Origin: Candidatus Omnitrophota bacterium
GTDB lineage: Bacteria > Omnitrophota > Gorgyraeia > Zapsychrales > JAKLDJ01
Length of the DNA: 64,000 bases
Direction: 5' to 3'
Assembly: GCA_022703585.1 (NCBI GenBank)
Contig: JAKLDJ010000004.1
Span: 71,594-135,593 of the forward strand
The notes under the pieces were generated by a model, which saw only the letters and a list, made by a program, of their open reading frames with translations, was not told where the DNA came from and did not search any database. A program made the translations under genes and the position numbers. Shown here piece after piece: positions 32,711 through 55,669 of this stretch (position 1 is its first letter; each line of letters opens with the position of its first letter).

Positions 32711-32756
32711 TTTTATTGGCGGGGTAGCTCAGCCCGATAGAGCACTCGGCTCATAC
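32711..32756 (+). repeat. attL-like direct repeat (7 nt upstream plus first 39 nt of the tRNA(CAT) gene)
   Basis: ttttattggcggggtagctcagcccgatagagcactcggctcatac is identical to 46325-46370. The copy diverges immediately after the anticodon loop. Confidence 0.85.
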
Positions 32757-32864
32757 GCTATAAAATTAGAAATTAAAATTCAATTTTTTACTCCCATCAT
32801 TAATTAAATCCTCCCAAATAACCTTCATTGATTAAGAATAAGTTTGTCATAACGCTAAAATGTT

Positions 32865-33773
32865 ATGAAATTAAACGATGCGTATGATGAATTTATCAAC
32901 TCAGCACTTTTGGAAAGATGTTTAGAGCAAACAACTATTGATTGGTATTCTCGTTGCATTCAGCCAGTATTTAAATACTTCCGCTACAACCTCATTCCGC
33001 TAGAAGTTGATTCTCTAACAGTCGAAAATCTAAGAAAATATTTTATTAGTTACAAACAAAAAGGAAACACTTCAAGGACTGTGCTTAATGCAATGCAGGG
33101 CACTAGGTCTTTTTGTAGTTTTCTACTCAAGAGGGGGTATTTGCAAAAAAATCCTTTCCTTGAACTTGAAAAACCAAAGCTACCTAAAACACTTCCTGAA
33201 TTCTTAGATGAAGAAGAGGCAAAAAAATTACTACAAGCATGTATTAATCTCAAAAGAACCTACAAATCTAGGTGGAGCAGAGACATTGCTATTATCGCTT
33301 TGTTTCTCTTTGCTGGTTTGCGCAAGAAAGAACTTTTAAACTTAAAACTAAACGATTTCAATCAAGAAAAAGGATATATCAAAGTTTCTGCAAAGAATAA
33401 AGAGAGATTAGTTCCATTATGCGATACAGCTAAATCATTTCTACTGGATTATCTGAAAATAAGACCCAAAAGAGTGCTGGTCGATAATATTTTTGTGTCT
33501 ACTAACAGAAAATCATCTGCACTAACGCAACAGGGGTTATACGATTTATTCCTGGATTTACGTAAGCTAGTACAGTTTAGGATAAAGAAAAAGCTTAGCC
33601 CCCAAATTCTGAGGCATACTTTTTGCACCTTAATGCTCCGAAATGGCGTAAATTTGCGGGATATTCAGCTTTTAGCAGGGCATTCGGATATATCTACTAC
33701 GGCAAGATTTTATTTGGGGTGTGATGAAAAACAGCTAAAAAGTGCGGTAGATAGACATCCGTTGAATATTTGA
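32865..33773 (+). CDS. int: Tyrosine-type site-specific recombinase/integrase
   Basis: C-terminal catalytic region LRHTFCTLMLRNGVNLRDIQLLAGHSDISTTARFY (R...HxxR...Y). N-terminal SAM-like core-binding domain. Confidence 0.9.
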   Translation: MKLNDAYDEFINSALLERCLEQTTIDWYSRCIQPVFKYFRYNLIPLEVDSLTVENLRKYFISYKQKGNTSRTVLNAMQGTRSFCSFLLKRGYLQKNPFLELEKPKLPKTLPEFLDEEEAKKLLQACINLKRTYKSRWSRDIAIIALFLFAGLRKKELLNLKLNDFNQEKGYIKVSAKNKERLVPLCDTAKSFLLDYLKIRPKRVLVDNIFVSTNRKSSALTQQGLYDLFLDLRKLVQFRIKKKLSPQILRHTFCTLMLRNGVNLRDIQLLAGHSDISTTARFYLGCDEKQLKSAVDRHPLNI

Positions 33774-33797
33774 TTTTACCAGAAGAAAGCGTATAAT

Positions 33798-36700
33798 ATG
33801 CGCATGTCCGCATTAGTCGAAGAAAGAATAAAGAGATGGAAAAACAAATTAATAGACCTATCTAAACGTAATCGACTCCTCAATTTTAAGCCCACCAAAA
33901 CAACCACTATTCAGATTGTAGACGAAATTCCATCAGAAGCTTATCGTACTATTGTTCTAAATGAAAGTGTCATGTCTTTTCTTCCAGCAGATGGCGATAT
34001 CGAAGGCGACAAAGACAATACGGGTTCTTCCAGTCAGCTTGAAATAAAAGAATTTCAAGATTACGCTCAAGAAGAATTAGACACAAAACACACTGATTTA
34101 TACCTTCAAACAAACTTGGGTGAAAGCCATCTCGACAAGAATTTATTTCGCATTACTTCAATCGCTACATCGGTTATGGAAGAACAAGGTTATAACTCTT
34201 TGTTTTTGGCATTAGGTTTTTTGGAGTGGTATGAATCAAAAGATTCGGATGTTAAGTTTAGGTCTCCTATCCTTTTAATTCCTGTGCAATTAAACAGAAA
34301 ATCAGTCAAAAGTGATTATACTTTGAGTTTTGGTGAAGATGCGCCTATTTTGAATCCTGCATTAATATATATGCTTTCGCTTGATTTTGGCATTGATTTA
34401 GAGGACATAAGCGAAGAATTAGAACAAATTGAACCCAGAGAAATATTCAGAAAAATACAGGAAGCGATTCAGGAATTTGAACGTTGGAAAGTAACTAATG
34501 ATATCTTTTTAAGTTTGTTTTCATTTACGAAATTTATTATGTTTAAAGATTTAGAAAAGAATATGGGCACGCTCATTGATAATAAAGTTATCCAAATTAT
34601 TTGTGGTGTGGGGAGAGAAGAAAATATAGCCTTGGACGACATTTGCCCATTAGGAGAAATTGAGAAAAATACGAAACCGGAGAAAACTTTTCAAATTCTT
34701 GATGCAGACTCAAGCCAACAAAGAGCAATTCTCGTAGTCAAAAAAGGACATAACCTTATTATCGAAGGCCCCCCAGGAACAGGAAAGTCGCAAACAATAG
34801 CCAACATGATTGCGGAAAGTCTAACAGAAGGGAAGAAAGTATTATTTGTGAGTGAGAAAATGGCAGCTCTTGAGGTTGTAAAGAATCGGCTTGAATTAGC
34901 CGGTATTGGAGATTATTGCTTAGAACTGCATAGCCGTAAGACTAATAAAAAAAGGGTAGCTGAGGAACTTGGAAGGGTGATGGAACAACGAAAAAAGCCC
35001 GACCATAGCCATAATGATGAATTAGCTAAATTAGAGAGATTGCGTTCAGAATTAAATCGCTACGTATCAGATTTGCATAAAATATTTGGCGGGCTTCAGA
35101 TGACCCCGTACCAAGCAATTGGGATAGTTAATGCACATCCAGATATGCCAGACTTAGAATACATGTTTAATAACACCAAAGAGTGGTCAAAAGATAAATT
35201 TGATATAATCTGTGAACTTTTTGAGAAATTAAGTCGAAATATATTGAATATCGGACAACCACGATTGCATCCTTGGTTCGGTACAAGTCTTATCGAATTA
35301 GTTTATTCTGACAAAACAAATCTAAGAAACCATTTCAATAACATAAGTAGAATAGTTTCTGAGCTAAAAATTAGTATTGATGCATTGAGTGAAATCAGTT
35401 CATTTGGTGATGTAAAAACTATTTCCGATATTCAAGAATTGTTAGATGCATCTGAAATTTTGAAACTTTCGCCTAACGTAGCAAGTGATTTGCTAAAAGA
35501 TAAACGTTGGAATGATATCAGTGCAGATGTGAGACAAGCTATTAGTGCAGTACAAACATTTAATACTTTTGAGAAGAAATATTCAAGCCAGTATAAAATG
35601 ACGGTGTTGAATGAAAACATTGAGGAGATTCTCCAAAGATATAAAACTTATACGAGTAACATGTTTTTTGTATTTAAATTTAGTTTCTGGAAAGATAGTA
35701 AAGTTCTCAAGAGTCATTTTACAGGTAAGAGAAAAATTAACCTAAAGGAACTAATCAAGGAATTAGACGAATTATTTCTTTGGAAAAAGTCTGCACAGCA
35801 AATAGACGATTTTAGTAAAAATGGAAATGAGCTTTTTGGTGAACGATGGAGAGGGCGTAAGTCCAGTGGCGAAGAACTCCAAAAGTTCTCAGAATGGATT
35901 GTCAAATTTAGATATCATGTAATTAAGAATCATTTTAAAGATAAGGTTTTTGAAAGCAGCAAAGATAAATCTTCTCTTGAAGATTTACAAACGAAAGTAA
36001 AAAACAACTTGGATGAATTTAATGGTGTTTTAAGCTCAATCAATAGCATCGTAAAATTCGATTATAAATTAGCTTTTAGTACTAAGCTCTGCGAACATAA
36101 TGACCTTGATATGATAAGAGGGAAATTAAATAAGATGAGCGAGTCGATGGAAGAAGTAGACCCTTGGCTAAGCTTTCAGAGAGTATACCAAGAATGTGAG
36201 AAGGAGGGGTTAACTGAATTTATTGATGTGCTTTTAGCCAAAGATATTAAACCAGAAGCATACGTGACGGCTTTTAAATGTCAATTCTTACGATGTTGGT
36301 TGGATGAGGTTTTCTCTGAGAGAGATAGATTAAGAAATTTTCAAGGTAAAAACCATGAACAATTGATTGAGCAATTCAAACAATTAGATTGCAAACAAAT
36401 TGAATTGGCAAAGGTTCGAATCCAACATCTTCTTTCTGGAAATTATGATTCAAGTTGGAAAGGAGCTCAGAGTTCTGAGAGAGGAATACTGGAGCGTGAA
36501 GTTAGAAAAAAAAGAGCACATAAGCCTCTTAGAAAGTTATTTAAAGAAATACCTCACTTGTTATTATCACTAAAACCCTGTTTAATGATGAGTCCTTTAA
36601 CTGTCGCACAGTTTTTGGAGCCAGACTTATTCGATTTTGACTTGGTTATTTTTGATGAAGCTAGCCAAGTGCCTCCTCAGGACAGTATTGGAGCAATTAT

Positions 36701-38498
36701 GCGTGGTAAGCAAATAGTTATTGCAGGTGACGCTAAGCAGTTGCCACCAACTTCATTTTTTCAATCAACGGTATTGGATACTGAAGATGATGATGAATTT
36801 GATGAGTATATCCCAGAAGATTTAGATAGCATTCTAGATGAATGTGCGTCAGTTGGCTTGCCTCGGACTTTATTAGAATGGCATTACAGAAGCAAACACG
36901 AGTCTTTAATCGCATATTCGAACAAATATTATTATGAAAATAGATTAAATACTTTTCCTAATTCAATAGATGTGAGTGATACGCTTGGAATTAAATTCAA
37001 TTATTTTCCAGAGTCACAGTACCGTAAGGGCGGTGTAAATATTCTTGAAGCACAAGAAGTTGCTAAAAGAGTGTTTCAACATTTTAAGGAGAATCCTGAT
37101 ATAAGTTTAGGTGTGGGGACGTTCAGTATCAAACAAAAATATGCCATAGAGGATGCTGTTGAAGAATTAAGAAAGAACGATACAAGCTTAGAAGACTTGT
37201 TTTCTCCGGATAGGCCAGAGCATTTCTTTGTTAAGAATCTAGAATCAATACAGGGAGATGAGCGAGACGTAATCTTTATTAGTATTGGATATGGTAAGGA
37301 TGATTCTGGAAAATTGCCAATGAGATTTGGACCTATTAATCAACTGGGTGGAGAGCGAAGGCTTAATGTTCTTATTACGCGAGCAAGAAGACGATTAGAA
37401 ATCTTCAGCTCAATACGAGGCTCCGACTTTGACTTGACTAAAACAGAAAGTGAGGGAGTGCACCTTCTCAAGAAATATCTCGATTATGCTGAGCTGGGAA
37501 GAAGCGTACTGCTTCAGGATATCGAATATTCGAATTCATCTAGTTATTCTGACTCTCCATTCGAGGAGGCAGTATATGAATCTTTAGTCAGGGCAGGATT
37601 TAAGGTTCATCAACAAGTTGGGTGTTCAGAATATAGAATTGATATGGCTATCGTCGATGTTGAATTACCGGGCAAGTATGTACTTGGCATTGAATGTGAT
37701 GGAGCAAATTATCATTCAAGTATTACAGCAAGAGATAGGGATAGACTGAGACAGCAGGTCTTAGAGGGCCTGGGATGGAATATTTATCGAATTTGGTCTA
37801 CCGATTGGTTTAAAAATAAGAAGAAGGAAACAGAAAGATTGATTGAGGCAATTAGAGAAAGCCAGAAGGGAAATAGTAAAAAAAAACTAAATAAATATAC
37901 TAGTTTTGAAATAAAACTCAATTCCGCCTCCACAGAGACATTATCGAATAAAGATAGGAAATTGGTAGATTATCAATTAACTCCCGTGGATTCCATCAGA
38001 ACATCAGATTTTTATTATCAATCAGATGAAGTTCTAGCTCAAATTTTAATTAAAATAGTCAAGTGTGAGGGGCCGATTTTTTATGAAGAAGCATGGAGGA
38101 GATTAATCCAACACTGGGGGATGCGGTCTGTAGGCAGTAGGATTCGACTCAAATTAAAAGGCTTAGAGCAATACTGCTTAAATAATAAGAAATTTGAGAA
38201 ACGAAAAGATTTTTATTGGCTTAATAAGCATCAAGAATTGAAGATTAGGAACAGAGACGTTAACGATGTTTATAAAAAGATTGAGTATGTTGCCCCAGAG
38301 GAAGTCCAAGAAGCAGTGAAATATGTTTTAAATATGGAGTACTCAATACCACTAGTTTCTTTAATATCTCAAACAGCTAAATCATTAGGCTTCCATAGGA
38401 TTGGTGATGACGTTTATTCATATATTAAGAAAGCGATTGATTTGCTTATAAAAAATGAAGATTTGTATGAAGACAACGGCAATATAAGGATTAAGTAA
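33798..38498 (+). CDS. Giant helicase-nuclease: DUF4011-like N-terminus, Upf1-like SF1 helicase (AAA_11/AAA_12), Vsr/DUF559-like PD-(D/E)xK nuclease and DUF3320-like tail
   Basis: 1566 aa. SF1 motifs: Walker A EGPPGTGKSQT, Walker B VIFDEASQV, motif III IAGDAKQLPPT, motif V IQGDERDVIFIS, motif VI NVLITRARRRLEIF. C-terminal endonuclease-like block: FEEAVYESLVRAGFKV...EYRIDMAIVD...LGIECDGANYH. Confidence 0.8.
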   Translation: MRMSALVEERIKRWKNKLIDLSKRNRLLNFKPTKTTTIQIVDEIPSEAYRTIVLNESVMSFLPADGDIEGDKDNTGSSSQLEIKEFQDYAQEELDTKHTDLYLQTNLGESHLDKNLFRITSIATSVMEEQGYNSLFLALGFLEWYESKDSDVKFRSPILLIPVQLNRKSVKSDYTLSFGEDAPILNPALIYMLSLDFGIDLEDISEELEQIEPREIFRKIQEAIQEFERWKVTNDIFLSLFSFTKFIMFKDLEKNMGTLIDNKVIQIICGVGREENIALDDICPLGEIEKNTKPEKTFQILDADSSQQRAILVVKKGHNLIIEGPPGTGKSQTIANMIAESLTEGKKVLFVSEKMAALEVVKNRLELAGIGDYCLELHSRKTNKKRVAEELGRVMEQRKKPDHSHNDELAKLERLRSELNRYVSDLHKIFGGLQMTPYQAIGIVNAHPDMPDLEYMFNNTKEWSKDKFDIICELFEKLSRNILNIGQPRLHPWFGTSLIELVYSDKTNLRNHFNNISRIVSELKISIDALSEISSFGDVKTISDIQELLDASEILKLSPNVASDLLKDKRWNDISADVRQAISAVQTFNTFEKKYSSQYKMTVLNENIEEILQRYKTYTSNMFFVFKFSFWKDSKVLKSHFTGKRKINLKELIKELDELFLWKKSAQQIDDFSKNGNELFGERWRGRKSSGEELQKFSEWIVKFRYHVIKNHFKDKVFESSKDKSSLEDLQTKVKNNLDEFNGVLSSINSIVKFDYKLAFSTKLCEHNDLDMIRGKLNKMSESMEEVDPWLSFQRVYQECEKEGLTEFIDVLLAKDIKPEAYVTAFKCQFLRCWLDEVFSERDRLRNFQGKNHEQLIEQFKQLDCKQIELAKVRIQHLLSGNYDSSWKGAQSSERGILEREVRKKRAHKPLRKLFKEIPHLLLSLKPCLMMSPLTVAQFLEPDLFDFDLVIFDEASQVPPQDSIGAIMRGKQIVIAGDAKQLPPTSFFQSTVLDTEDDDEFDEYIPEDLDSILDECASVGLPRTLLEWHYRSKHESLIAYSNKYYYENRLNTFPNSIDVSDTLGIKFNYFPESQYRKGGVNILEAQEVAKRVFQHFKENPDISLGVGTFSIKQKYAIEDAVEELRKNDTSLEDLFSPDRPEHFFVKNLESIQGDERDVIFISIGYGKDDSGKLPMRFGPINQLGGERRLNVLITRARRRLEIFSSIRGSDFDLTKTESEGVHLLKKYLDYAELGRSVLLQDIEYSNSSSYSDSPFEEAVYESLVRAGFKVHQQVGCSEYRIDMAIVDVELPGKYVLGIECDGANYHSSITARDRDRLRQQVLEGLGWNIYRIWSTDWFKNKKKETERLIEAIRESQKGNSKKKLNKYTSFEIKLNSASTETLSNKDRKLVDYQLTPVDSIRTSDFYYQSDEVLAQILIKIVKCEGPIFYEEAWRRLIQHWGMRSVGSRIRLKLKGLEQYCLNNKKFEKRKDFYWLNKHQELKIRNRDVNDVYKKIEYVAPEEVQEAVKYVLNMEYSIPLVSLISQTAKSLGFHRIGDDVYSYIKKAIDLLIKNEDLYEDNGNIRIK

Positions 38499-38524
38499 AA
38501 TATGTTTTAATAAATATACAATTT

Positions 38525-38734
38525 ATGAATGACCTATTTGATGAATTCTTAGAATATGATTTTACTATGGGGGTTGATGTTGTGAAGTGCCCGCATTGCG
38601 GTGGTGACGTGCAATGCAGCCTTTTCATTGATAGCGAAGTTGAATGTTCAGGGTGTGGAAAAAAATTTCATAAGGATGAATTAAGAGCAAATCGTAAGAA
38701 TCCTAAAGACACAATACCTAAACAGCCGAATTAG
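38525..38734 (+). CDS. Small zinc-ribbon protein
   Basis: 69 aa with CPHCGG...CSGCGKKFH (two CxxC pairs). 26 bp downstream of the helicase-nuclease gene. Confidence 0.5.
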   Translation: MNDLFDEFLEYDFTMGVDVVKCPHCGGDVQCSLFIDSEVECSGCGKKFHKDELRANRKNPKDTIPKQPN

Positions 38735-38777
38735 GTCGAGAAAAGGTTCTGTCTTTATATTATAGGGCATAGAAACT

Positions 38778-41309
38778 ATGTTTAATTTCTTCAAATTTCA
38801 AAATTATCGCTCTTACTGGAAAATAAGAAATTTGGTTTTATTATCTAAATTTTGGATACATAGGTTGTTTTTTCAAGGTAATTTAAAAATAAAAGACGCT
38901 CAGGAAGAGTTGTCAATAGTTACTCACCTAACATGGCTTGCTTCAAAAACCATTCTTTTTTCTATTCTTATCGTAGTATCTTGTGAATCATTCGAAAAAG
39001 CAATATTAAAATTTCTCCCTACTAATACAACAATCCTTCTAGCGGGAATGCACGACTTAGTTATAAGAAACTCCAGTTCTTTGGAGAATTTTATCATGAC
39101 GATTGCTTCGATACTAGGCGTGTTCTTGGGTCTTTACTTTACTGCAATTAGTATCGTAGCTAGCTCGGTATTTACAGCTGTGCCGAGCAATGTTAGAGAG
39201 TTGTACTTAAAAGAGAAAATTGGGAATACCTATATACGGATATTGGCTATCCTTTTAGCAATTTCGATTATAATCTTTGGCTGTCGGATATTTGGCTATT
39301 ACCCAAGCACGCTGCTAACCGTTTTAATGCTGATTTTTAGCTGTGTCAGCATATTCGCATTTGTAATGTTGGGGGTTAGAGCCTTTTCCTTCTTCGACCC
39401 CACTGTGTTAGTAGATATAATTTTTGCGGATTTATATGCAGATATAAGATTGGCGAGTGTAAGTGGCCTAAGGTGGCTCGATTCTAACTTTCAGTCTCAT
39501 TACCATAAGCTTGCATCAAAAAACGTAAACACCCTTGCTAATTTGGTCGAAATATGTCTAAAAAATCCTCATTTATACAAGAAATCTGTCCCGTTGCTAT
39601 CATGGCGTCTATGCTATTTTTTAAAAGATTATCAAATGCAAAAAGCCCGAATACCTACTGATAGTTACTGGTTTTCACGTATACCAAAATATAAAGACAC
39701 CTTCATCGTAGACGACACAACTTTAACAGTAGCATTACAAACTCAAACTTCTATTCAACCGGAATCTATAACTGATAATTATTGGCTGGAAGATGAAATT
39801 TTTGAAATCCTTACGAATATGCTTAGCATTATGTTAAATAATCACAATATTATAATCTCTGCCGATATTTTAGATGGTATTAATAAATATTTTGAAGATT
39901 TGGGAGAGAAACTGGAGGGTAAGAAATGCTGCGATATGTTTAAGAAAATAGAAGCAGTAATGGAACCTTATTTTCTAAGTCTTTCTGAAGAAAAATGTAA
40001 AGGAATAGCGGATGTAAATTTTGCTCTGTTTGATAGATATAACATGCTTCTGTTGTCTTGCGCGATGGGATTCAATAAATTTATTCGTGAATTCAAAACA
40101 TCTTCCTTTATGCAAAACATAGATTCCATTTTGTGGGAGGATAGGGGTGCTATTTATCGAAACTCTATGGTGCCGATGCTATTGGAAAGGCTAGAATTCC
40201 TCCAAAAACGCCTCGAATTTGAACAGAAAGTAGAAGGGGAGTTTGTTAGCCCTACTTGGTACAGAAGACAGTTACTTAGTAATAAAATTGGCTTAATAGT
40301 GAACGAAGTTTTTGAATCAATGATGAGTTCATTGCAAAATTTTTATGTTAATAGTTCCAGCGCACTTTTAAACAAAAAAGCAGTTATCTTAACAACATAT
40401 AGGGCAAAAAGAGGTCTCGAAGTATTCTGGAAAATGCAAACCCATATTCTGCATCTCAAGAAACTGATTGAAAATCTCGAAAAATTTAACATAGAAAAAG
40501 AATTGTTTTGGCCAAAGTGGGATTGGGATGTTATTGAGAAGAAAATCGATAAAAATAATGATGCCCTCATACAACAAGAAGCTAAATGCCTTCCGGCACT
40601 ATCTATCATAAATAAAACAGAGAATGAGCCAGACCTCTTCGGCGAAACATATCATAAAATCTGTGAAGAATGTTTTGCATCTTTGGCAAATAATAAAGAT
40701 GAAAAATTCTCCACAATATTTCATTCCTTATTTATAGGTGCTCTTCAAGCGCATGACCGCCTTAGAATTTCGTATAAAGACCGTGACGCCAGAACTCAAA
40801 TATTAATTTCATTTCAGCCATTAGCAGACCTTATAGAAGTAAGTGGCTATGCCAAAATATATTCTGAGTTGTTCTCTTCTCCAAAACTATGGGAAACGTG
40901 CCAGGAATGTTGGAATAATTATTTAAATAATAAAGAAAAGAAAGATGAAACAATAGAATACATCATTACGAGTTACCAATATAAAAAGGCACAATTCGGT
41001 TTATTTGCACGAGATATTTGGAAAACAAATTGGCAAATTAAACTTAATAGAAAATTGCAAGAAATGAATTTAATCGACAGTATGTTTAGAGAAGACGATT
41101 ATCCGAGAAAGCCAAAAGAGAGACTTGCGGATAAAAGTCCTTTTATCCGAACTCTGTGCAGAGGGAGATATGAACCATTTATTCGTGCTTCAGAAATTTT
41201 TCTCCTCATTTATTTTGTAAAACAACTTGGAGTTAAGAACTTTTCCGATAATCATAATTTTATTCGGCATTTGGAAGAGGAAGAAGCTAAGACCAATGTT
41301 ACGAAATAA
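38778..41309 (+). CDS. Large multi-pass membrane protein (≈6 N-terminal TM helices + ~600-aa cytoplasmic helical region), function unknown
   Basis: 843-aa ORF with hydrophobic helices between residues ~45-230 and a Lys/Glu-rich alpha-helical remainder. No recognisable catalytic motif. Confidence 0.6.
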   Translation: MFNFFKFQNYRSYWKIRNLVLLSKFWIHRLFFQGNLKIKDAQEELSIVTHLTWLASKTILFSILIVVSCESFEKAILKFLPTNTTILLAGMHDLVIRNSSSLENFIMTIASILGVFLGLYFTAISIVASSVFTAVPSNVRELYLKEKIGNTYIRILAILLAISIIIFGCRIFGYYPSTLLTVLMLIFSCVSIFAFVMLGVRAFSFFDPTVLVDIIFADLYADIRLASVSGLRWLDSNFQSHYHKLASKNVNTLANLVEICLKNPHLYKKSVPLLSWRLCYFLKDYQMQKARIPTDSYWFSRIPKYKDTFIVDDTTLTVALQTQTSIQPESITDNYWLEDEIFEILTNMLSIMLNNHNIIISADILDGINKYFEDLGEKLEGKKCCDMFKKIEAVMEPYFLSLSEEKCKGIADVNFALFDRYNMLLLSCAMGFNKFIREFKTSSFMQNIDSILWEDRGAIYRNSMVPMLLERLEFLQKRLEFEQKVEGEFVSPTWYRRQLLSNKIGLIVNEVFESMMSSLQNFYVNSSSALLNKKAVILTTYRAKRGLEVFWKMQTHILHLKKLIENLEKFNIEKELFWPKWDWDVIEKKIDKNNDALIQQEAKCLPALSIINKTENEPDLFGETYHKICEECFASLANNKDEKFSTIFHSLFIGALQAHDRLRISYKDRDARTQILISFQPLADLIEVSGYAKIYSELFSSPKLWETCQECWNNYLNNKEKKDETIEYIITSYQYKKAQFGLFARDIWKTNWQIKLNRKLQEMNLIDSMFREDDYPRKPKERLADKSPFIRTLCRGRYEPFIRASEIFLLIYFVKQLGVKNFSDNHNFIRHLEEEEAKTNVTK

Positions 41310-42279
41310 AAAAATACACCAAGACGAAAAAAGTTCGATGAAATCCATTTATTACACTCCTTTGGAGCATCGAAGGGATGTGTACAGCTCTTTTTATAAT
41401 CACATGCTAACCGAAGATATTCATTTGGGCATAATGCCCTTTGGCGGAAGAACCAAAAATGAGTTGTTTAAAGTAGCAGTTAAACCACAGGATGCGGAAA
41501 TCGAGAATTTAATAAAAGATAGTTTACTTACGCATCACGGCGAACCGTATGATTTAAAAGAAGCGATTTGCGACTTTATTGACGAAGCTGCTGCATTACT
41601 AGGATACGATGGCGTAGCTTATTACGAAATTGTATATTATACGACTTCCAAAAAGCCGACACGATTTGAGTTGCACCGTATTATCAACAGAAATATAAAA
41701 GATACGTTTGGATTATACTGGCAGTATATCCCGAGTGCTGCACGAAAATATATAGAAACGGATAAGAAATTCATCTGGCTACCTAAGAGGAGAATTATTA
41801 AAATAAAATTTCCCAGTATAATTGGTGGTTTAAATTCTCAACGAACATTAATCCACAACCTAACATGGCTGAGCGAATGTAGCGTAACACCGAAATTTGC
41901 AATGGAAGACATGAAAAAACAAAAGCAAACAAACGATTATGATTTCGTAGTTTACCAGAGAAACAAGAACATATTTTTAGCTAGAATAACGCAACGTTTA
42001 GGATGGTCTGCTCGAGGCGAATTGAATGATTATACATTAGATATTTATCAGTTATACCGATACCTAAAATTTGAGAAAACCAAAGCAATTATCCGAGAAA
42101 CTGTTTTAGGCAATCTTAATAAAGCACTAGCTACTATCGGTAAAGAAATTGGTTTTAATGCAACAATCGAAATAAGCGGTATTCCTTCAGCATCAGATTT
42201 TGATAATTACATAGATAAGCTTCTTTCGGGAGAAATGCCATTTGCCAAGGTTGTCGAGATTATGAAATATGATTGGTAA
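41296..42279 (+). CDS. Hypothetical protein, translationally coupled to the upstream membrane protein
   Basis: ATG at 41296 overlaps the preceding stop by 14 nt. 327 aa with no recognised domain. Confidence 0.5.
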   Translation: MLRNKKIHQDEKSSMKSIYYTPLEHRRDVYSSFYNHMLTEDIHLGIMPFGGRTKNELFKVAVKPQDAEIENLIKDSLLTHHGEPYDLKEAICDFIDEAAALLGYDGVAYYEIVYYTTSKKPTRFELHRIINRNIKDTFGLYWQYIPSAARKYIETDKKFIWLPKRRIIKIKFPSIIGGLNSQRTLIHNLTWLSECSVTPKFAMEDMKKQKQTNDYDFVVYQRNKNIFLARITQRLGWSARGELNDYTLDIYQLYRYLKFEKTKAIIRETVLGNLNKALATIGKEIGFNATIEISGIPSASDFDNYIDKLLSGEMPFAKVVEIMKYDW

Positions 42280-42618
42280 TAGCACTATTTGTTTCCAGAG
42301 AAAAACGCGAGATTGCCGATTAAGGCAGAAAATAGCTACCGATTAGTTAGAGGTCTATGATAAAATACCGATAAATTAACCTGATGTGGAAATGGCAGCA
42401 TAAAAATTTCAGAGAGGGAGGTTTACAGAGTAAAATATTTTAAATATTTAGGAACATAGCTTTTCCTAATTAATAAACCAACTTGTGAGAGGAAGAGACT
42501 GTGTCCTGGGCACTTCGGTGCTTGGGGCAAGCGGTCTTTCGCTTTTACTCACAAGTTGGGCGTTAGACTTAAAAATGCTTGCCCTTTTTTATTTGGGTAA
42601 GCCTAAAAGGAGGGGACA

Positions 42619-43131
42619 ATGATAGCATCGCTAGTAACTTTAATAATTGTTATTGGGTCATCGATTTGGATAGCTATTGATGCACATCGAAACAAGATTT
42701 CCACTGACAATAAGCCGTACCGGATAAATAGCGGTGCTGTGACTTGGTTTTTTGCTTGTCTCTTATTCTGGATTTTTGTACTCCCTGCCTATCTCTTCAA
42801 GAGATTCAAACATCTAAAAGCCCAAGGAAAAAACTCTATCCTAGCAACTGTAGTGGGGATTATTCTGTTAGCAGTTCCAATCATGATGTTTACTGGCATC
42901 ATGAAGATGCCCACCTTAGACCTCCAAGAACAGGTTAAGCAAAGCATAATAGAGACGTGGTCAAGAGAGCCAACGATGGCAAATACTCAAATTCAGTCCT
43001 TTACGTTAATTCACAAAAGCAACAACCAGTATGAGGGTTTACTTGAAGTCACGATGAATGGGGTGGCTACAAGATTTCTCATAGATGTCACGTACGATGG
43101 TAGGAAATTTATGTGGCAAATTAGGCAATAA
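42619..43131 (+). CDS. Small membrane protein (2-3 TM helices + C-terminal soluble domain)
   Basis: 170 aa with GGAGGGG RBS and hydrophobic segments at residues ~5-25, 40-60 and 70-95. Confidence 0.5.
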   Translation: MIASLVTLIIVIGSSIWIAIDAHRNKISTDNKPYRINSGAVTWFFACLLFWIFVLPAYLFKRFKHLKAQGKNSILATVVGIILLAVPIMMFTGIMKMPTLDLQEQVKQSIIETWSREPTMANTQIQSFTLIHKSNNQYEGLLEVTMNGVATRFLIDVTYDGRKFMWQIRQ

Positions 43132-43627
43132 TCTCTGGCATAGCTTTTTAAACATTTTGTAGTCTAAGAACTTATCAAAACTGCTTCGAAAAGCATATTA
43201 TATTATTCAAAAGTTTCCTATAAAGCATCAAGCCCCACCAATCTTTCCCCGAAAATACATCGAAGAAAACCACTTTGTAAATCTAATTAAATATCATAAA
43301 TCATTTATTTGCAACAGGTTACTGTTAGTCACTACAGATTTTTATACAAAAAATAGGCGTATTCAGAGAAAGATAGGGTAGGTAGAGCTAAATTTCAGAC
43401 CGGGGTTGAGCGAAGAGCGACCCACCGGGTATTGGTCAACCATCAAAGAGTAGTCACGTAGACTACTAGTCGATGGCTATCAGTGCTGCCTAGCAAATCA
43501 CATGTTGCTCAAGAATTCGTTGAACCTAGCCTATGCCGGAGCGCAAATAAGCAGCTCCAAATTTAATCTGCCAACTATTTCTAAATGTTTTTCTCGTCGA
43601 GAAATCAAGTTTTTCAAAAAAAAGTAC

Positions 43628-43656
43628 TTGACAAAATTATTTTTGTGTTCTATAAT
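43628..43656 (+). promoter_or_regulatory. Consensus sigma70 promoter (TTGACA-N17-TATAAT) inside the island
   Basis: ttgacaaaattatttttgtgttctataat has perfect hexamers with 17-nt spacing. It reads into the iteron-like repeats and the small ORF / repO-like gene. Confidence 0.6.
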
Positions 43657-43689
43657 TTGCTTGTAACATGTTGGTGCTGAATGACTTGC

Positions 43690-43817
43690 GTGGATTTTTT
43701 GCGGACGAAAAGTGGATTTTTCATGGAAATAGAGTGGATTTTTCGTAATATATCTGAAAGGAGGTGATAATATTTAAAGAATAAAAAAATAAAAGAAAAC
43801 GGATAAATCGTGGATTT
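43690..43817 (+). repeat. Iteron-like direct repeats GTGGATTTTT (x3 at ~21-23-bp spacing, plus a fourth degenerate copy)
   Basis: gtggattttt occurs at 43690, 43710 and 43733, with cgtggattta at 43808. Two-helical-turn spacing, located immediately upstream of a lambda-O-like initiator gene. Confidence 0.55.
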
Positions 43818-43937
43818 AGCGATTTATAGTAGCCCTTACTCTGTCTGGTGTAGATTAGGGGCATTTTTTTAACATAACCTTCTGATTCTTAGCTGAATCG
43901 GGGGGTTTTTTATTAAAGAATAAAGAAGGAGGGCTCT

Positions 43938-44156
43938 ATGAATAACAAACCAAAACAAAAAATCAGATTCGGCGATGTCAATTTATGCGTCTGGGAAAAT
44001 ACGATTAAGATAAAGGATAATGCTGTCCCGGTTTTGACATATACTTTCAGCAAATCGTATCGTTCGAGAGGTAAATTCAAATACATGAGAAACTTTCAAA
44101 AACAGGATTTACCTAACATCACCAAAGCGATAGAAATAATTTCTGGTTCTCGCTGA
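43938..44156 (+). CDS. Small hypothetical protein
   Basis: 72-aa ORF with AAGGAGGG RBS. Lys-rich and of no recognisable family. Confidence 0.4.
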   Translation: MNNKPKQKIRFGDVNLCVWENTIKIKDNAVPVLTYTFSKSYRSRGKFKYMRNFQKQDLPNITKAIEIISGSR

Positions 44157-44221
44157 GCAAAACTAGATAAAGAAAAAATATATATCAAAATACAACTTTA
44201 AAATAAAAAGGAGATAAAAAA

Positions 44222-45139
44222 ATGGACAATTTTAAAAACCTTTGGCAACCCTACGATGATAAGAAATCACTTTTGTGGACAAAAATTCCAAATTGCTTAT
44301 TGCTTTTTCTTATGCAAGGTAAGCAAAGGTTCACAGAAATTAGAATTATTTTATTAATTTGTCGTATGGGCTTCGGATTCAAAAGAGAGGAGACTAATTA
44401 TCTTGATTTGAAAGACTTTGAAAAAGCCACAGGATTAAATAAAAGCCAAGCTTCTAAGGCAATAAATTCACTCTTAAGCGCATATGTGATATTCCGCTAC
44501 TCGAAGAATGGTAACAAGTATAAGTATGCAGTTAATCTTTTGAAGCATGGCATAGAAATGAAGCATTTCCGAATTGGTAAAATGGATAGCCAAAAAGATA
44601 ATGGGATTTATCAGATTGGAAATATAGATTACCAATTAGACAATTATAACGGCTCGAAGAATGAGCTAATTCTATATAGTTCCAAGGGTTACAAGAATGT
44701 AAAAAACCCCTATATAAAAGAGGATAGAAAAGATGATATAAAAATAGATATAGCAAAAAGGCATGCCAGTAGTCCTGTTTCTAGCAGTCCTACTAGCAAT
44801 ACTTTAACTGGCAACGCTAGCCAAACTACCAAGAGTAAAAAATACAATAACACCATGGAATTAGCTCAGGATTTTGATAAAGAACTATATAAAGCAAATA
44901 TAGAAAAGGATGGTGAAAAATTGCTAATTAGATTCATAGAATTAGAGCATTCACAATTTCCCGACCAAAGGCAACCTTGGCTCATACCAAGTATTTATTG
45001 TGACTATACAGCCAGAAAAATAGCTGGATTAACTGAGGAGATGTATACCAAAGAGCTTAATAAAATTCTGGAAAATGCCAATAAGTTACGAAACGAATTA
45101 AACTCTAGATGTAGCGAATTACTAAAGAATAAAAAATAG
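44222..45139 (+). CDS. Replication initiator / replisome organiser, phage lambda O-like N-terminal winged-helix
   Basis: N-terminal segment TEIRIILLICRMGFGFKREETNYLDLKDFEKATGLNKSQASKAINSLLSAYVI follows the lambda O / phage_rep_org_N pattern (xxLLxIxRxTxGxxK...TGL...AIxxL). Adjacent to iteron-like repeats. Confidence 0.55.
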   Translation: MDNFKNLWQPYDDKKSLLWTKIPNCLLLFLMQGKQRFTEIRIILLICRMGFGFKREETNYLDLKDFEKATGLNKSQASKAINSLLSAYVIFRYSKNGNKYKYAVNLLKHGIEMKHFRIGKMDSQKDNGIYQIGNIDYQLDNYNGSKNELILYSSKGYKNVKNPYIKEDRKDDIKIDIAKRHASSPVSSSPTSNTLTGNASQTTKSKKYNNTMELAQDFDKELYKANIEKDGEKLLIRFIELEHSQFPDQRQPWLIPSIYCDYTARKIAGLTEEMYTKELNKILENANKLRNELNSRCSELLKNKK

Positions 45140-45219
45140 AATAATACATCTATCGCGTTTTTGCGAAGGAACATTTCCATTGACATTTGCTGAAGCATTT
45201 GTTATGGTATACCAAAACT

Positions 45220-45393
45220 ATGAAATACTATACCATAAGTCAACTTGCTAAAGAGCTTAAAGTGCATAAAAATACCATTTTCTATTGGGAGAAAACGGGT
45301 AAAATACCTAAACCCAAGAGAGAATCTGTAAGCGGTTATCGTGTTTGGACAGAGAAAGATGTAAAAAAGATAAGAGAGTCAAATTCGAGGTGA
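45220..45393 (+). CDS. MerR/excisionase-like HTH protein (candidate Xis or regulator)
   Basis: 57 aa. YTISQLAKELKVHKNTIFYWEKTGKIPKPKRESVSGYRVWTEKDVKKI follows the MerR-type/Xis pattern. Sits near attR. Confidence 0.5.
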   Translation: MKYYTISQLAKELKVHKNTIFYWEKTGKIPKPKRESVSGYRVWTEKDVKKIRESNSR

Positions 45394-45396
45394 AAA

Positions 45397-46215
45397 ATGA
45401 CAATAAATAACTACGATGAATCTCACATAGAACGAAAATATTTTATCGATGGACATATGTATAATTGTCCTTTCTGTAATATTAGAAATGTACAATACGA
45501 GATTTCTAATTCGGGAAGATTTTCTTGGTCACGTGAGCGAGATTGCTATTTTTATCTTGTCAAGTGCAGTCATTGCGACCACACTTCTTTTCATTTAAGT
45601 AATTATGATTTGGTTAGAAATTATGGTCATTTTGAAAATCCGCCAAAACAGCGTAAGATTATTCAAGGAGAAAATCAAAGCTTCAAAATTTTGAAAAATG
45701 GAGTAGAAGTCATGGAGCTTGATGAAGTATTCTTTTATCATCAGCCAACAAGCTTCTTCACAATAGATAACAGAATACCTGAAATTATACGAAATCTTCT
45801 TTCTGAAGCTGAAGGCTGTAGAAAAATGGATTATCTTGTGGGTGCTTCGGGCTGTTTAAGAAAAGCTATTTATGAATTGCTAGACTTACAAGAAATCGGC
45901 AACGAAGAAAATGATACTAAATTACCCTACGAGGAAAGAATAAAACGACTAAAAGGAAAATTTCCTAACATAGATTCGGAATATTTTGATATTCTTGCTG
46001 GAATACAAGGCATGACAAGCGATAACCTTCATGAAGGTTCTTGGGATAGCTTTGATTCTCGAACTCTAGCTCTATTAATAGAGACAACCAAAGAAATCTT
46101 ATATGAAATTTATGTTTTACCTGATGAAAAAAAGACAAAAAGGAACATAATAGCTAAAATGCGAGAACAATTTAAACAACAAAAATCAACAGCCGATACC
46201 GAATCAAAAACTTAA
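45397..46215 (+). CDS. Zinc-finger protein with C-terminal DUF4145-like helical domain
   Basis: N-terminal CPFCN...CSHCDH zinc ribbon. The C-terminal ~100 aa (LRKAIYELLDL...ILAGIQGMTSDNLHEG...) resembles a DUF4145-type module, recalled from memory. Confidence 0.4.
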   Translation: MTINNYDESHIERKYFIDGHMYNCPFCNIRNVQYEISNSGRFSWSRERDCYFYLVKCSHCDHTSFHLSNYDLVRNYGHFENPPKQRKIIQGENQSFKILKNGVEVMELDEVFFYHQPTSFFTIDNRIPEIIRNLLSEAEGCRKMDYLVGASGCLRKAIYELLDLQEIGNEENDTKLPYEERIKRLKGKFPNIDSEYFDILAGIQGMTSDNLHEGSWDSFDSRTLALLIETTKEILYEIYVLPDEKKTKRNIIAKMREQFKQQKSTADTESKT

Positions 46216-46324
46216 TTTAATAACAGAAAGGAGAAAGCATACTAGACAAATAATTCTTAGTCAATGGTTGTAAAAAATATTGAATTTTTGTCAATTTTAG
46301 CTTAGAATCCTTCAATTATATTAA

Positions 46325-46370
46325 TTTTATTGGCGGGGTAGCTCAGCCCGATAGAGCACTCGGCTCATAC
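46325..46370 (+). repeat. attR-like direct repeat (7 nt upstream plus first 39 nt of the intact tRNA)
   Basis: Identical 46-mer to 32711-32756. Confidence 0.85.
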
Positions 46371-46405
46371 CCGATTGGTCGAGAGTTTAAATCTCTCCCC
46401 CGCCA
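46332..46405 (+). tRNA. tRNA with CAT anticodon (elongator Met or Ile2/lysidine type)
   Basis: Hand-folded cloverleaf: acceptor GGCGGGG/CCCCGCC, D-arm GCTC-loop-GAGC, anticodon loop CTCATAC (CAT), T-arm GAGAG-TTTAAAT-CTCTC, discriminator A, no encoded CCA. G1-C72 rules out the initiator. tilS lies 1.2 kb downstream. Confidence 0.8.
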
Positions 46406-46488
46406 CTTTCTCTCACAAACCCCACCCGAAAATTCCGTAGATTACTTTGCCCCGTATCAGTATAATAAGGAAGCAAAGGAGGGGACCC

Positions 46489-54685: not shown

Positions 54686-55192
54686 ATGTTAGCAATTTTA
54701 TTACTGACCTTCGGATTCGCAACACGCCTTTTTATCCACACACCTAATTTTACTCCGGTTATCGCGCTCGCGCTTTTTGGCGGCGTCTATTTAAACAAAA
54801 AATACGCCCTGATTTTGCCTTTAGGTCTCATGGCGATTTCTGATATGGCGATCGGTATGCACAATGTCGTCTTTTTTACCTGGGGAAGCATTGTGGCCAT
54901 CGCACTTTTAGGGATGTGGCTTAAGAGCCGCAACAACTGGGTCAATATTGCCAGCACCAATCTTGTCGGGGCTGTCTTGTTTTTCATTGTTACCAATTTC
55001 GGTGTCTGGGCTATGGGTTGGTATCCGCTGACCCTCGCCGGCTTAGCCGATTGTTTCTGGCTGGCGATACCGTTTTTTAGAACCACACTGCTCAGCACTA
55101 TTGTTTACAGTGTCATTTTGTTCGGTTTATACGAACTTGTTGCTTACCGGGTTAAAGACACACGTCTAGCCCGTGTTCTTTTGACAAACTAA
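54686..55192 (+). CDS. Small polytopic membrane protein (5-6 TM), ECF-transporter S-component-like
   Basis: 168 aa, almost entirely hydrophobic helices, with a structured leader upstream. The family is uncertain. Confidence 0.45.
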   Translation: MLAILLLTFGFATRLFIHTPNFTPVIALALFGGVYLNKKYALILPLGLMAISDMAIGMHNVVFFTWGSIVAIALLGMWLKSRNNWVNIASTNLVGAVLFFIVTNFGVWAMGWYPLTLAGLADCFWLAIPFFRTTLLSTIVYSVILFGLYELVAYRVKDTRLARVLLTN

Positions 55193-55204
55193 AAGTAATC
55201 TAAT

Positions 55205-55415
55205 AGGTTCCTGCAACTCGGCCCCCAGAAATTCTTACCGGGCCAAAGGAATAAAAGGGAAGTCCGTTTGATTCGGACGCGGTCCCGCCGCTGTGATCCG
55301 GCCTTTTTCTTAAAAAGAAAAAGGACCCTTTTGACAGTCATCAGCCACTACTTTAATCAAGTGGGAAGGCAGTCAAAAGAGAAGGAAAGCCAGAAGACCT
55401 GCCTGTTAGTTATGT
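55205..55415 (+). promoter_or_regulatory. Cobalamin (adenosylcobalamin) riboswitch
   Basis: aataaaagggaagtccgtttgattcggacgcggtcccgccgctgtga, gccactac...gtgggaaggcagtc (B12-box) and gccagaagacctgcc match conserved blocks of the E. coli btuB leader and the RF00174 consensus. Followed by expression-platform hairpins and a TonB-dependent receptor gene. Confidence 0.8.
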
Positions 55416-55669
55416 TGCTGATATCGCGCGAGACGATATTCAAACGCATAGATTGGGACTAAGAAATCAGGGTGCACTCCCAACTGCCTCTAAAAGGGCG
55501 GTTGGGAGTTTTGTTTTTAGGCCCGGCGAAGCTCAAGCGCAGAAGCGTTTGAGCTTCGCCGAGGCAACACCGCCGTTTGTTTCGTTCGCCAAGATTTGTG
55601 GCGGACGAAACAGGCGGTGTAGACCACCCCGGTTTTTCTAAAAAAGAATTTCAATAATGGAGAACAAAA

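What the first reader, a model, noticed from the sequence alone, without database searches (positions are those of the whole stretch)
38525..42279. Tightly coupled downstream genes: zinc-ribbon peptide, 843-aa multi-TM protein and overlapping 350-aa protein of unknown families
The helicase-nuclease is followed by gaps of 26 bp and 43 bp and then a 14-nt overlap (41296-41309). This suggests a single operon encoding a CxxC...CxxC zinc-ribbon peptide, a large membrane protein (6 TM plus ~600 cytoplasmic aa) and an unrecognisable 327-aa protein. A membrane effector partnered with a nucleic-acid sensor/helicase follows the logic of several abortive-infection systems, yet none of the three proteins matches anything I can name. 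This is a candidate for a genuinely new multi-gene module.
Basis: inference. Interest (0 to 1): 0.8.

Follow-up and report, generated by a model that had tools for sequence, protein, structure and literature searches.

The report
Membrane protein paired with portal-fold protein
Two of the four flagged genes form a widespread, unnamed gene pair, a four-helix membrane protein joined to a protein shaped like a phage DNA-entry "portal", that moves between bacteria on mobile DNA with no virus around it and most likely takes part in phage–host conflict.

Summary
The ORFs, the 26- and 43-nt gaps and the 14-nt overlap are as described. Across 48 related loci the 327-aa gene follows the 843-aa gene in 41, and the other 7 are contig ends or partial matches. 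A helicase homologue appears in 1 locus and the Zn-ribbon peptide in none.

The real unit is a two-gene pair under purifying selection (dN/dS 0.09–0.20). One natural end-to-end fusion exists, and the partner family has about 1,300 50%-identity clusters. Neither protein hits Pfam, NCBIfam, PADLOC or PHROGs.

The pair travels on integrative elements, serine-recombinase islands, an IS66-bracketed plasmid segment, and beside QatABCD, RM and TA genes. Here it is cargo of a 13.6-kb tRNA-Met island that also carries a stand-alone PDC-S37/Hhe-like defence helicase.

Best guess: a membrane-anchored portal mimic acting in anti-phage defence. This function is unproven.

The parts
38778..41309 (+). Large subunit of the pair, 843 aa. 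It has a cytoplasmic N-terminus, four conserved TM helices (about 51-70, 103-127, 152-172, 178-200; invariant FLGLYFTAIS motif in TM2) and a cytoplasmic all-alpha solenoid domain of about 640 aa.
   Evidence: - ORF.
- No hit in any profile library.
- 37 word-indexed homologues of about 840 aa.
- 40 genome loci.
- AF2 model with pLDDT 84.8 and pTM 0.73, all helical.
- Foldseek against viral structures finds nothing.
- TM positions conserved.
- Invariant columns.
41296..42279 (+). Small subunit of the pair, 327 aa, soluble, with a phage-portal fold. Conserved motifs are EDxHxGIMP, G-x-AYYEIV, YWQxIP, TxxxGWxAR and EYYxxYRxLKF.
   Evidence: - AF2 model with pLDDT 70.2 and pTM 0.75.
- Weak collinear sequence hits to PF04860 (E 2e-4), phrog_12 portal (E 1.7e-3) and an HK97-portal profile (hhalign E 4.3e-4, probability 34%).
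- 1,287 family clusters.
- Alignment and motifs.
41296..41309 (+). 14-nt overlap between the stop of the large gene and the start of the small gene (translational coupling). A purine-rich GGAAGAGGAAGAAG lies just upstream.
   Evidence: Sequence. Overlap or abutment recurs in nearly all related loci.
38525..38734 (+). 69-aa CxxC...CxxC zinc-ribbon-like ORF. It is not a conserved partner of either the pair or the helicase family, and is seen only in identical copies of this element.
   Evidence: It is absent from 48 loci, from the closest relatives L049, L050 and L004, and from downstream of 5 helicase homologues.
33798..38498 (+). Separate cargo: a 1,566-aa protein with DUF4011, SF1 helicase (AAA_11/AAA_12), MTES_1575 nuclease and DUF3320 domains. 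It belongs to the stand-alone candidate defence family PDC-S37 and is related to Hhe and ProA.
   Evidence: - Pfam domains.
- PADLOC PDC-S37 at 1627 bits, full length.
- NCBIfam ProA at 1474 bits against a cutoff of 1500, missing profile positions 1-355; Hhe at 1008 against 2000.
- 449 plasmid records with homologues in unrelated contexts.
32865..33773 (+). Tyrosine integrase of the 13.6-kb island that carries both modules.
   Evidence: Phage_integrase domain, E 3e-28.
32711..32761 (.). attL: a 51-nt direct repeat that duplicates the 5' half of tRNA-Met.
   Evidence: Repeat family D1, 96% identity, spacing 13,614 nt.
46325..46406 (+). attR repeat (46325-46375) lying within the intact tRNA-Met gene (46332-46406). 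This is the right end of the island.
   Evidence: The GC drop from 0.48 to 0.33-0.38 between about 32.6 and 46.3 kb is.
42619..46215 (+). The rest of the island:
- 170-aa TM protein (42619-43131)
- ORF-free gap with promoter- and terminator-like signals
- 72-aa ORF (43938-44156)
- RepO-like replication protein (44222-45139)
- MerR/excisionase-like HTH (45187-45393)
- 272-aa Zn-finger DNA-binding protein (45397-46215)

None of these co-occurs with the pair elsewhere.

Best explanation
The unit is an autonomous, horizontally mobile two-gene module. It is not a four-gene operon.

Shown:
- An inner-membrane protein (N-terminus inside, four TM helices, then a cytoplasmic alpha-solenoid of about 640 aa) is made together with a 327-aa protein that has the fold of a tailed-phage portal.
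- The two genes are coupled by an overlapping stop and start.
- The two genes are always adjacent and in the same order. They co-evolve under purifying selection and exist at least once as a single fused polypeptide.

Inferred:
- The two proteins form a stoichiometric complex. In it the solenoid tethers a portal-like, probably ring-forming, protein to the cytoplasmic face of the membrane.
- The module serves in phage/mobile-element conflict, most likely as an anti-phage system that uses portal mimicry.
- In that model, the decoy portal engages a phage head-assembly or packaging component that normally docks on a portal, such as terminase, scaffold/capsid or adaptor.
- That engagement either titrates or misplaces the component at the membrane, or triggers the membrane subunit as an abortive-infection effector.

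In this window the pair is one of two independent cargo modules of a 13.6-kb tRNA-Met integrative island. The other cargo is the stand-alone PDC-S37/Hhe-like helicase-nuclease. The 69-aa Zn-ribbon ORF is a lineage-specific extra.
For: Pair conservation:
- The partner lies directly downstream, on the same strand, in 41 of 48 loci. All 7 misses are contig ends or partial matches. L042 is a disrupted copy.
- The reverse test holds. Distant partner homologues P0050 and P0051 have an overlapping upstream gene of 791-817 aa. The L059 one belongs to the big family at hhalign probability 100%, E 3e-99.
- Fusion protein P0096, 1,145 aa, is big (residues 2-804, E 9e-93) plus partner (residues 855-1140).
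- dN/dS is 0.09-0.20 for both genes.

Portal fold:
- The best annotated sequence hits in Pfam and PHROGs are also portal families.
- hhalign places the partner's G-x-AYYEIV block on the HK97-portal GNAY motif.

Not a virion gene:
- No recurrent head or packaging families among 126 ORFs within 10 kb or among 116 immediate neighbours.
- 0 hits in 50,697 phage genomes and in IMG/VR pattern scans.
- Real portals all sit between TerL and a protease or capsid gene.

Mobile and defence context:
- The tRNA-Met island in this window.
- Integrase and Xis next door in L050 and L059.
- Large serine recombinases in 14 loci.
- QatABCD next door in L006.
- RM, Mom and an NTPase in L001.
- BrnT/A in L004.
- VapBC and flanking IS66 copies on a conjugative B. 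glumae plasmid.
- Type I/III RM parts, HNH and T5orf172 among neighbours.
- A patchy spread over more than 15 phyla, including one archaeal-type context.
Against: - No experiment links the pair to phage resistance.
- The defence-context evidence is a tally, not a formal enrichment statistic. Several loci (L002, L004, L063) have ordinary neighbours.
- No enzymatic or pore-forming domain is recognisable in the large protein, so the effector step is conjecture.
- Ring formation and the large-small interaction were not modelled.
- The partner model is only of medium confidence (pLDDT 70, from 14 sequences).
- Sequence-level portal homology is marginal: 21 bits against the Pfam cutoff of 39, in 1 of 26 members, and hhalign probability 34%.
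- The single fusion could be an indel artefact in the overlap.
- Being carried by mobile elements is equally expected for functions that benefit the element rather than the host.
Confidence: 0.45

Rival explanations
1. DNA conduit for the mobile element. The portal-fold ring, held at the membrane by the 4-TM subunit, works as a portal normally does, as a channel for double-stranded DNA. In this reading it exports or imports DNA across the membrane, or loads it into membrane vesicles, for the elements that carry it.
For: - The only known role of the portal fold is as a DNA channel (established knowledge).
- The most conserved loop, TxxxGWxAR at 232-240, lies between two helices where portals have their tunnel loop. 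This is my inference from the secondary-structure order.
- The pair is constantly associated with integrases, serine recombinases, IS elements and plasmids.
- About half of the genome loci are in CPR episymbionts.
Against: - No ATPase or motor, relaxase or coupling protein is conserved beside the pair. The only third cluster is the recombinases.
- By topology the solenoid and the portal-like protein are both cytoplasmic, and four TM helices per subunit are not an obvious DNA pore.
- The pair also occurs in non-mobile chromosomal settings (L002, L004).
Confidence: 0.15
2. One reading: helicase-nuclease, Zn-ribbon peptide, membrane protein and 327-aa protein form one four-gene abortive-infection system, with the helicase as the nucleic-acid sensor.
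For: All four genes are on the same strand with very short gaps (26 and 43 nt) and no convincing terminator between them. They may therefore be co-transcribed in this particular island.
Against: - The helicase co-occurs in 1 of 48 loci and the Zn-ribbon in 0 of 48.
- The closest relatives lack both.
- The helicase family is modelled as single-gene (PDC-S37, Hhe) and sits in unrelated contexts.
Confidence: 0.04
3. Virion or satellite morphogenesis genes. The small protein is a working portal, or a capsid-hijacking portal substitute, of an unrecognised virus or phage satellite. The large protein is its membrane assembly factor.
For: - The portal fold.
- The island in this window looks like a satellite: 13.6 kb with int, RepO-like, Xis-like and DNA-binding genes.
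- Satellites are known to encode homologues of helper structural proteins, for example the SaPI Ccm capsid homologue (own knowledge).
Against: - No capsid, terminase, protease or tail genes recur within 10 kb in about 35 loci.
- No homologue in 50,697 phage genomes or in IMG/VR.
- Many loci have no satellite features at all: the IS66 composite on a plasmid, and the chromosomal L004 and L002.
- At 327 aa, with what looks like a very short clip region, it is smaller than the portals it matches (285-692 aa, mostly above 360).
Confidence: 0.12
4. Addiction or toxin-antitoxin-like module. The membrane protein is toxic, the small protein neutralises it, and the pair merely stabilises the mobile elements that carry it. 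The portal fold would then be a scaffold with no link to phage assembly.
For: - The architecture is two overlapping genes on mobile elements.
- The pair sits next to bona fide TA pairs: BrnT/A in L004 and VapBC in L062.
Against: - 843 and 327 aa are very large for a TA pair.
- The order and size are rigidly conserved, and a fused form exists. A fusion is hard to reconcile with a labile antitoxin.
- No known toxin domain is present.
Confidence: 0.1
5. An ordinary housekeeping membrane complex, such as a transporter or envelope factor, that merely lacks annotation.
For: Some loci lie among core genes: ribosomal proteins and tRNA synthetases in L002, and RecG and fatty-acid genes in L004.
Against: - The distribution is extremely patchy: 40 loci among 185,579 species genomes, scattered across phyla.
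- GC is atypical here.
- The pair is flanked by recombinases, IS elements or att sites in most informative loci.
- It has no transporter fold.
Confidence: 0.04

Closest known systems
Tailed-phage and GTA portal proteins (HK97-type PF04860 and relatives)
   Same: - It shows a weak collinear sequence match at the family's GNAY block.
   Different: - There is no terminase, protease or capsid neighbour. There is no homologue in phage genomes, and it falls below Pfam's threshold.
- It is shorter than the portals it matches.
- It is always preceded by, and once fused to, a 4-TM alpha-solenoid protein. No known portal has this.
Membrane-anchored anti-phage complexes (Kiwa KwaA/KwaB, Zorya ZorA/ZorB)
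   Same: The logic is similar: a membrane subunit is co-encoded with a soluble partner on defence islands. KwaB is also about 300 aa (own knowledge).
   Different: - No PADLOC model for Kiwa, Zorya or any other system matches either protein.
- The membrane subunit is far larger and carries a solenoid.
- The partner has a portal fold, not DUF4868 or a MotB-like fold.
Satellite-encoded mimics of helper-phage structural proteins (e.g. SaPI Ccm, P4 Sid)
   Same: The concept is similar: a mobile element carries a homologue or binder of a phage head component that interferes with phage assembly (own knowledge).
   Different: - Those mimics act on capsid shells, are soluble, and occur only in satellites.
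- This pair occurs outside satellites and is tethered to the membrane.
Hhe / PDC-S37 / ProA helicase-nucleases (for the neighbouring gene only)
   Same: The neighbouring 1,566-aa protein has the DUF4011, SF1 helicase, MTES_1575 and DUF3320 domains, and it matches PDC-S37 over its full length.
   Different: - This describes the upstream gene, not the pair.
- The gene scores below NCBIfam's ProA and Hhe cutoffs and lacks the ProA N-terminal 355 positions.

Membership tests
Phage portal protein (PF04860 and related families) | Portal fold (wing, stem, clip, crown) | tested here: met
   [not shown]
Phage portal protein (PF04860 and related families) | Sequence match above the curated family threshold | tested here: not met
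   - The window protein has no hit.
- 1 of 26 homologues hits PF04860, at 21.1 bits against a cutoff of 39.1.
- hhalign against 7 HK97-type portals gives probability 34%.
Phage portal protein (PF04860 and related families) | Encoded in a head-morphogenesis cluster (TerL - portal - protease/capsid) | tested here: not met
   No recurrent head or packaging families near the pair. All 7 control portals do sit in such clusters.
Phage portal protein (PF04860 and related families) | Present in virus genomes | tested here: not met
   0 tblastn hits in 50,697 phage genomes. 0 confirmed hits in IMG/VR pattern scans, which have limited sensitivity.
Phage portal protein (PF04860 and related families) | Dodecameric ring with a central DNA channel | not testable with these tools
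   No multimer prediction was available. This needs AF-multimer or cryo-EM.
Any catalogued anti-phage system (PADLOC-DB v2, NCBIfam antiphage models) | Profile match of the component proteins | tested here: not met
   The 843- and 327-aa proteins match no families at E<=0.1 in PADLOC or NCBIfam.
Anti-phage defence system (generic) | Enrichment next to known defence genes or on mobile islands | tested here: inconclusive
   The tallies are suggestive: QatABCD, RM, TA, PDC-S37, recombinases and IS elements. No background-corrected statistic could be computed.
Anti-phage defence system (generic) | Protection against phage when expressed | not testable with these tools
   This needs an experiment.
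PDC-S37 / Hhe / ProA helicase-nuclease (upstream gene) | Full-length profile match | tested here: met
   - PDC-S37: 1627 bits, residues 3-1563 against profile positions 1-1544 of 1550.
- The curated NCBIfam cutoffs are not reached: ProA 1474 against 1500, Hhe 1008 against 2000.
   Helicase in 1 of 48 loci, Zn-ribbon in 0 of 48, partner in 41 of 48. The close relatives lack the helicase and the Zn-ribbon.
tRNA-integrated genomic island | Integrase plus direct repeats that duplicate part of a tRNA gene, with atypical composition | tested here: met
   - Integrase.
- 51-nt repeat at 32711 and 46325 overlapping tRNA-Met.
- GC 0.33-0.38 against 0.48.
- Xis-like MerR HTH.

The most novel reading that the evidence does not exclude
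A portal protein has been domesticated by cells and mobile elements. It is permanently coupled to a dedicated 4-TM alpha-solenoid membrane protein. The resulting membrane-docked portal ring either traps phage packaging or assembly machinery, or conducts DNA. This would be a new class of phage-conflict machine. It is widespread (about 1,000 or more sequence clusters), and about half of the genome loci found here (19 of 40) are in CPR/Patescibacteria. It would be the first non-viral, non-GTA use of the portal fold.
Probability: 0.35. Interest if true: 0.88.

Novelty: categorically new. Interest (0 to 1): 0.77.

Why it matters
The portal fold is regarded as a hallmark of tailed viruses and their direct derivatives such as GTAs. 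Here a portal-fold protein is stably coupled to a membrane protein, moves on its own between distant phyla, and has no other virion gene nearby. That is an unrecognised exaptation of a viral hallmark protein.

If the pair defends against phage by mimicking a portal, it adds a new principle to bacterial immunity: a structural decoy for the packaging or assembly machinery. It would also give a candidate defence system to CPR/Patescibacteria and Omnitrophota. If instead it conducts DNA, it would be a new kind of DNA-translocation device.

Either way, two sizeable protein families (about 1,300 50%-identity clusters for the partner) currently have no name in Pfam, NCBIfam, PADLOC or PHROGs. Versions from cultured hosts (Burkholderia glumae, Paenibacillus lautus, Dendrosporobacter) make the question directly testable.

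Tried and rejected
- **Four-gene system.** Rejected on co-occurrence.
- **Zn-ribbon as a helicase accessory.** Five diverse helicase homologues have no downstream CxxC ORF. The metagenome scan with the helicase found only one irrelevant locus.
- **L052 as an excised circle.** The 13,628-nt contig is exactly the island interior plus 30 nt of the 46-nt repeat at each end. That is the signature of a k=31 assembly break.
- **Sequence relatives of the partner in the PDB.** None.
- **A third conserved gene.** All-against-all clustering of 778 neighbouring ORFs found only serine recombinases, in 14 loci and on either side. A 286-aa gene follows the pair only in the closest relatives.
- **Literature.** Nothing on 'ProA', 'PDC-S37' or portal-like defence proteins.
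- **Promoter and terminator scan.** Counts equal chance, so it is uninformative.
- **afdb50 fold library.** Unavailable.
- **Word-indexed homologue searches.** They badly underestimated family size, giving 12-37 clusters against 1,287 from exhaustive HMMER.


Full report
**Observation.**
- The downstream ORF has an in-frame ATG at 41296, which gives 327 aa.
- The gaps are 26 and 43 nt and the overlap is 14 nt.
- Homologues align from the 41296 start. Database gene callers used a later ATG, giving 313 aa.
- Hydropathy gives four TM helices, not six, and their positions are conserved across 35 homologues.
- Neither the 843- nor the 327-aa protein hits Pfam, PADLOC, NCBIfam or PHROGs.

**Setting in the window.**
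- The genes lie in a low-GC island, 0.33-0.38 against 0.48.
- The island is bounded by a 51-nt direct repeat at 32711-32761 and 46325-46375. The repeat duplicates the 5' half of tRNA-Met at 46332-46406.
- The island is 13.6 kb and encodes, in order:
  - a tyrosine integrase
  - the helicase
  - the Zn-ribbon ORF
  - the pair
  - a 170-aa TM protein
  - a 72-aa ORF
  - a RepO-like protein
  - a MerR/excisionase-like HTH
  - a 272-aa DNA-binding protein
- Database names place the host in Candidatus Omnitrophota.
- A 13,628-nt contig equal to the island is an assembly break at the repeat, not evidence of excision.

**The helicase is a separate module.**
- It matches PADLOC's single-gene candidate PDC-S37 end to end at 1627 bits.
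- It scores just under NCBIfam's ProA cutoff, 1474 against 1500, and lacks the profile's first 355 positions. It matches Hhe only in part.
- Hhe is listed as a one-gene system in the literature I could find.
- Homologues occur in 449 plasmid records.
- The five I inspected sit beside unrelated genes (HNH, DUF262, reverse transcriptase, SIR2, CRISPR). None has a small CxxC ORF downstream.

**The conserved unit is a pair.**
- The 843-aa family was recovered in 37 word-indexed clusters and 40 species genomes.
- Across 48 loci the 327-aa homologue lies immediately downstream on the same strand in 41. Its reading frame usually opens before the large gene's stop.
- The seven misses are contig ends (L011, L012, L036, L045, L047) or partial matches (L046, L048).
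- L042 is a copy split by an inserted ORF.
- A helicase homologue occurs in one locus (L043, opposite strand, 8 kb away). The Zn-ribbon and all other island genes occur in none.
- The closest relatives make the same point:
  - L049 (78% identity) and L004 (75%) have the pair without the helicase.
  - L050 (61%) has an integrase followed directly by the pair and then an Xis-like gene.
- The reverse test also holds. Two distant partner homologues each have an overlapping upstream gene of 791-817 aa. The L059 one belongs to the big family at hhalign probability 100%.
- Exhaustive HMMER with the partner profile finds 1,287 50%-identity clusters at E<=1e-3, nearly all 285-360 aa.
- One of those hits is a 1,145-aa protein that is a full-length fusion of the two proteins.
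- Both genes show dN/dS of 0.09-0.20.

**Structures.**
- The large protein models confidently (pLDDT 84.8, pTM 0.73) as an all-helical protein.
- Foldseek against viral models returns nothing meaningful.
- With a basic N-terminus and four TM helices, the 640-aa solenoid should be cytoplasmic (inference from the positive-inside rule).
- The small protein models at medium confidence (pLDDT 70.2, pTM 0.75).
- Sequence support is weak but consistent:
  - The best annotated hits among 26 homologues are PF04860 Phage_portal (E 2e-4, residues 76-159 on profile positions 52-123) and phrog_12 portal (E 1.7e-3).
  - hhalign against seven HK97-type portals aligns the partner's G-x-AYYEIV block with the portals' GNAY motif (E 4.3e-4, probability 34%).
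- From the order of secondary-structure elements, I infer that the most conserved loop (TxxxGWxAR, 232-240) occupies the position of the portal tunnel loop and that the clip region is very short. This mapping is inference, not a residue-level superposition.

**Not a virion gene.**
- Among 116 immediate neighbours and 126 larger ORFs within 10 kb, the recurrent families are serine recombinases and integrases, restriction-modification parts, methyltransferases, helicases, HNH, T5orf172 and transposases. No head or packaging family recurs.
- Neither protein has a tblastn hit in 50,697 phage genomes or a confirmed hit in IMG/VR pattern scans.
- All seven control portals lie between a terminase and a protease or capsid gene.

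**Contexts elsewhere.**
- QatABCD is adjacent in L006.
- An RM system, Mom and a large NTPase are nearby in L001.
- BrnT/A lies upstream in L004.
- Large serine recombinases flank the pair in 14 loci, mostly CPR.
- Integrase and Xis are present in L050 and L059.
- A VapBC-plus-pair segment is bracketed by IS66 copies on a conjugative B. glumae plasmid. Two Paenibacillus plasmids also carry the pair. All copies are annotated as hypothetical.
- 19 of the 40 genome loci are CPR/Patescibacteria. The rest are spread over many phyla, and one context looks archaeal.

**Interpretation.**
- Shown: a two-gene, translationally coupled, co-inherited module that is horizontally mobile, made of a 4-TM/solenoid protein and a portal-fold protein.
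- Inferred: the two form a membrane-anchored complex, supported by adjacency, overlap, the fusion and topology.
- Inferred with moderate confidence, from the mobile and defence-rich neighbourhoods and the patchy distribution: the pair works in phage or mobile-element conflict.
- The mechanism I favour is portal mimicry. The decoy engages a phage component that normally docks on a portal. It then either sequesters that component at the membrane or activates the membrane subunit. I give this 0.45.
- Rivals:
  - a DNA conduit for the element (0.15)
  - an unrecognised virus or satellite morphogenesis function (0.12)
  - a TA-like addiction pair (0.10)
  - the original four-gene model (0.04)
  - housekeeping (0.04)

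**Novelty.** No profile library, solved structure or paper available to me describes this pair. Its closest relatives are portals, in fold only, and it fails the other defining features of that family. I rate it categorically new as a module, with its function still to be shown.

Noticed in passing
window 55188-55420 (+): Cobalamin riboswitch (Rfam RF00174, 86 bits), well outside the island.
   Followed up: no
window 43131-43938: - An ORF-free gap of about 800 nt inside the island.
- It has a perfect sigma70 consensus (TTGACA-17-TATAAT, 43628-43656).
- It has a 13-bp-stem terminator-like hairpin (43876-43907).
- It has a 38-nt imperfect direct repeat (43751-43788 and 43890-43927).
- All of this lies just upstream of the 72-aa ORF and the RepO-like gene. 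It may be an origin, a regulatory region or a small RNA. Rfam finds nothing.
   Followed up: partly
window 45397-46215 (+): A 272-aa protein with N-terminal CxxC...CxxC motifs. It matches phrog_1305 'DNA binding protein' (E 4e-7) and has a faint PD-T7-4 hit. Its function in the island is unknown.
   Followed up: no
window 33798-38498 (+): The helicase matches NCBIfam 'anti-phage protein ProA' only from profile position 356 onward and falls 26 bits short of the cutoff. It is therefore an N-terminally shorter variant. I could find no paper that describes ProA or PDC-S37.
   Followed up: partly
L002:12595-13563: - The genomic context is archaeal-type, with ribosomal proteins L10, L1, L11, L39e and S19e.
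- The partner frame opens 10 nt before the large gene's stop but has no ATG, GTG or TTG in its first ~30 codons.
- This may be a frameshift-mediated fusion, echoing the fused 1,145-aa protein P0096.
   Followed up: partly
L042:12328-14825: In a Candidatus Multivorans chromosome, the partner gene appears to be split by an inserted 429-aa ORF. This looks like a degraded copy of the pair.
   Followed up: partly
L004:13584-14444, L005:4205-5065, L049:4526-5386: A 286-aa gene with no Pfam hit follows the pair in the three closest relatives. It is absent from the window and from distant loci, so it may be a lineage-specific accessory.
   Followed up: no
L006:4260-9305: A complete QatABCD-like cluster (KAP NTPase, QatB, a 456-aa protein, TatD) lies about 800 nt downstream of the pair, followed by a DNA methylase.
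   Followed up: no
L052 (whole contig) = window 32727-46354: The island assembles as its own 13,628-nt contig in three samples. The ends match a k=31 graph break at the 46-nt att repeat, so this is an assembly artefact and not an excised circle.
   Followed up: yes
L001:4741-9009: A 1,422-aa protein with only a faint NPHP3_N (STAND NTPase) hit, followed by ArsC/glutaredoxin-like and flavin-reductase genes, lies directly upstream of the most divergent copy of the pair.
   Followed up: no
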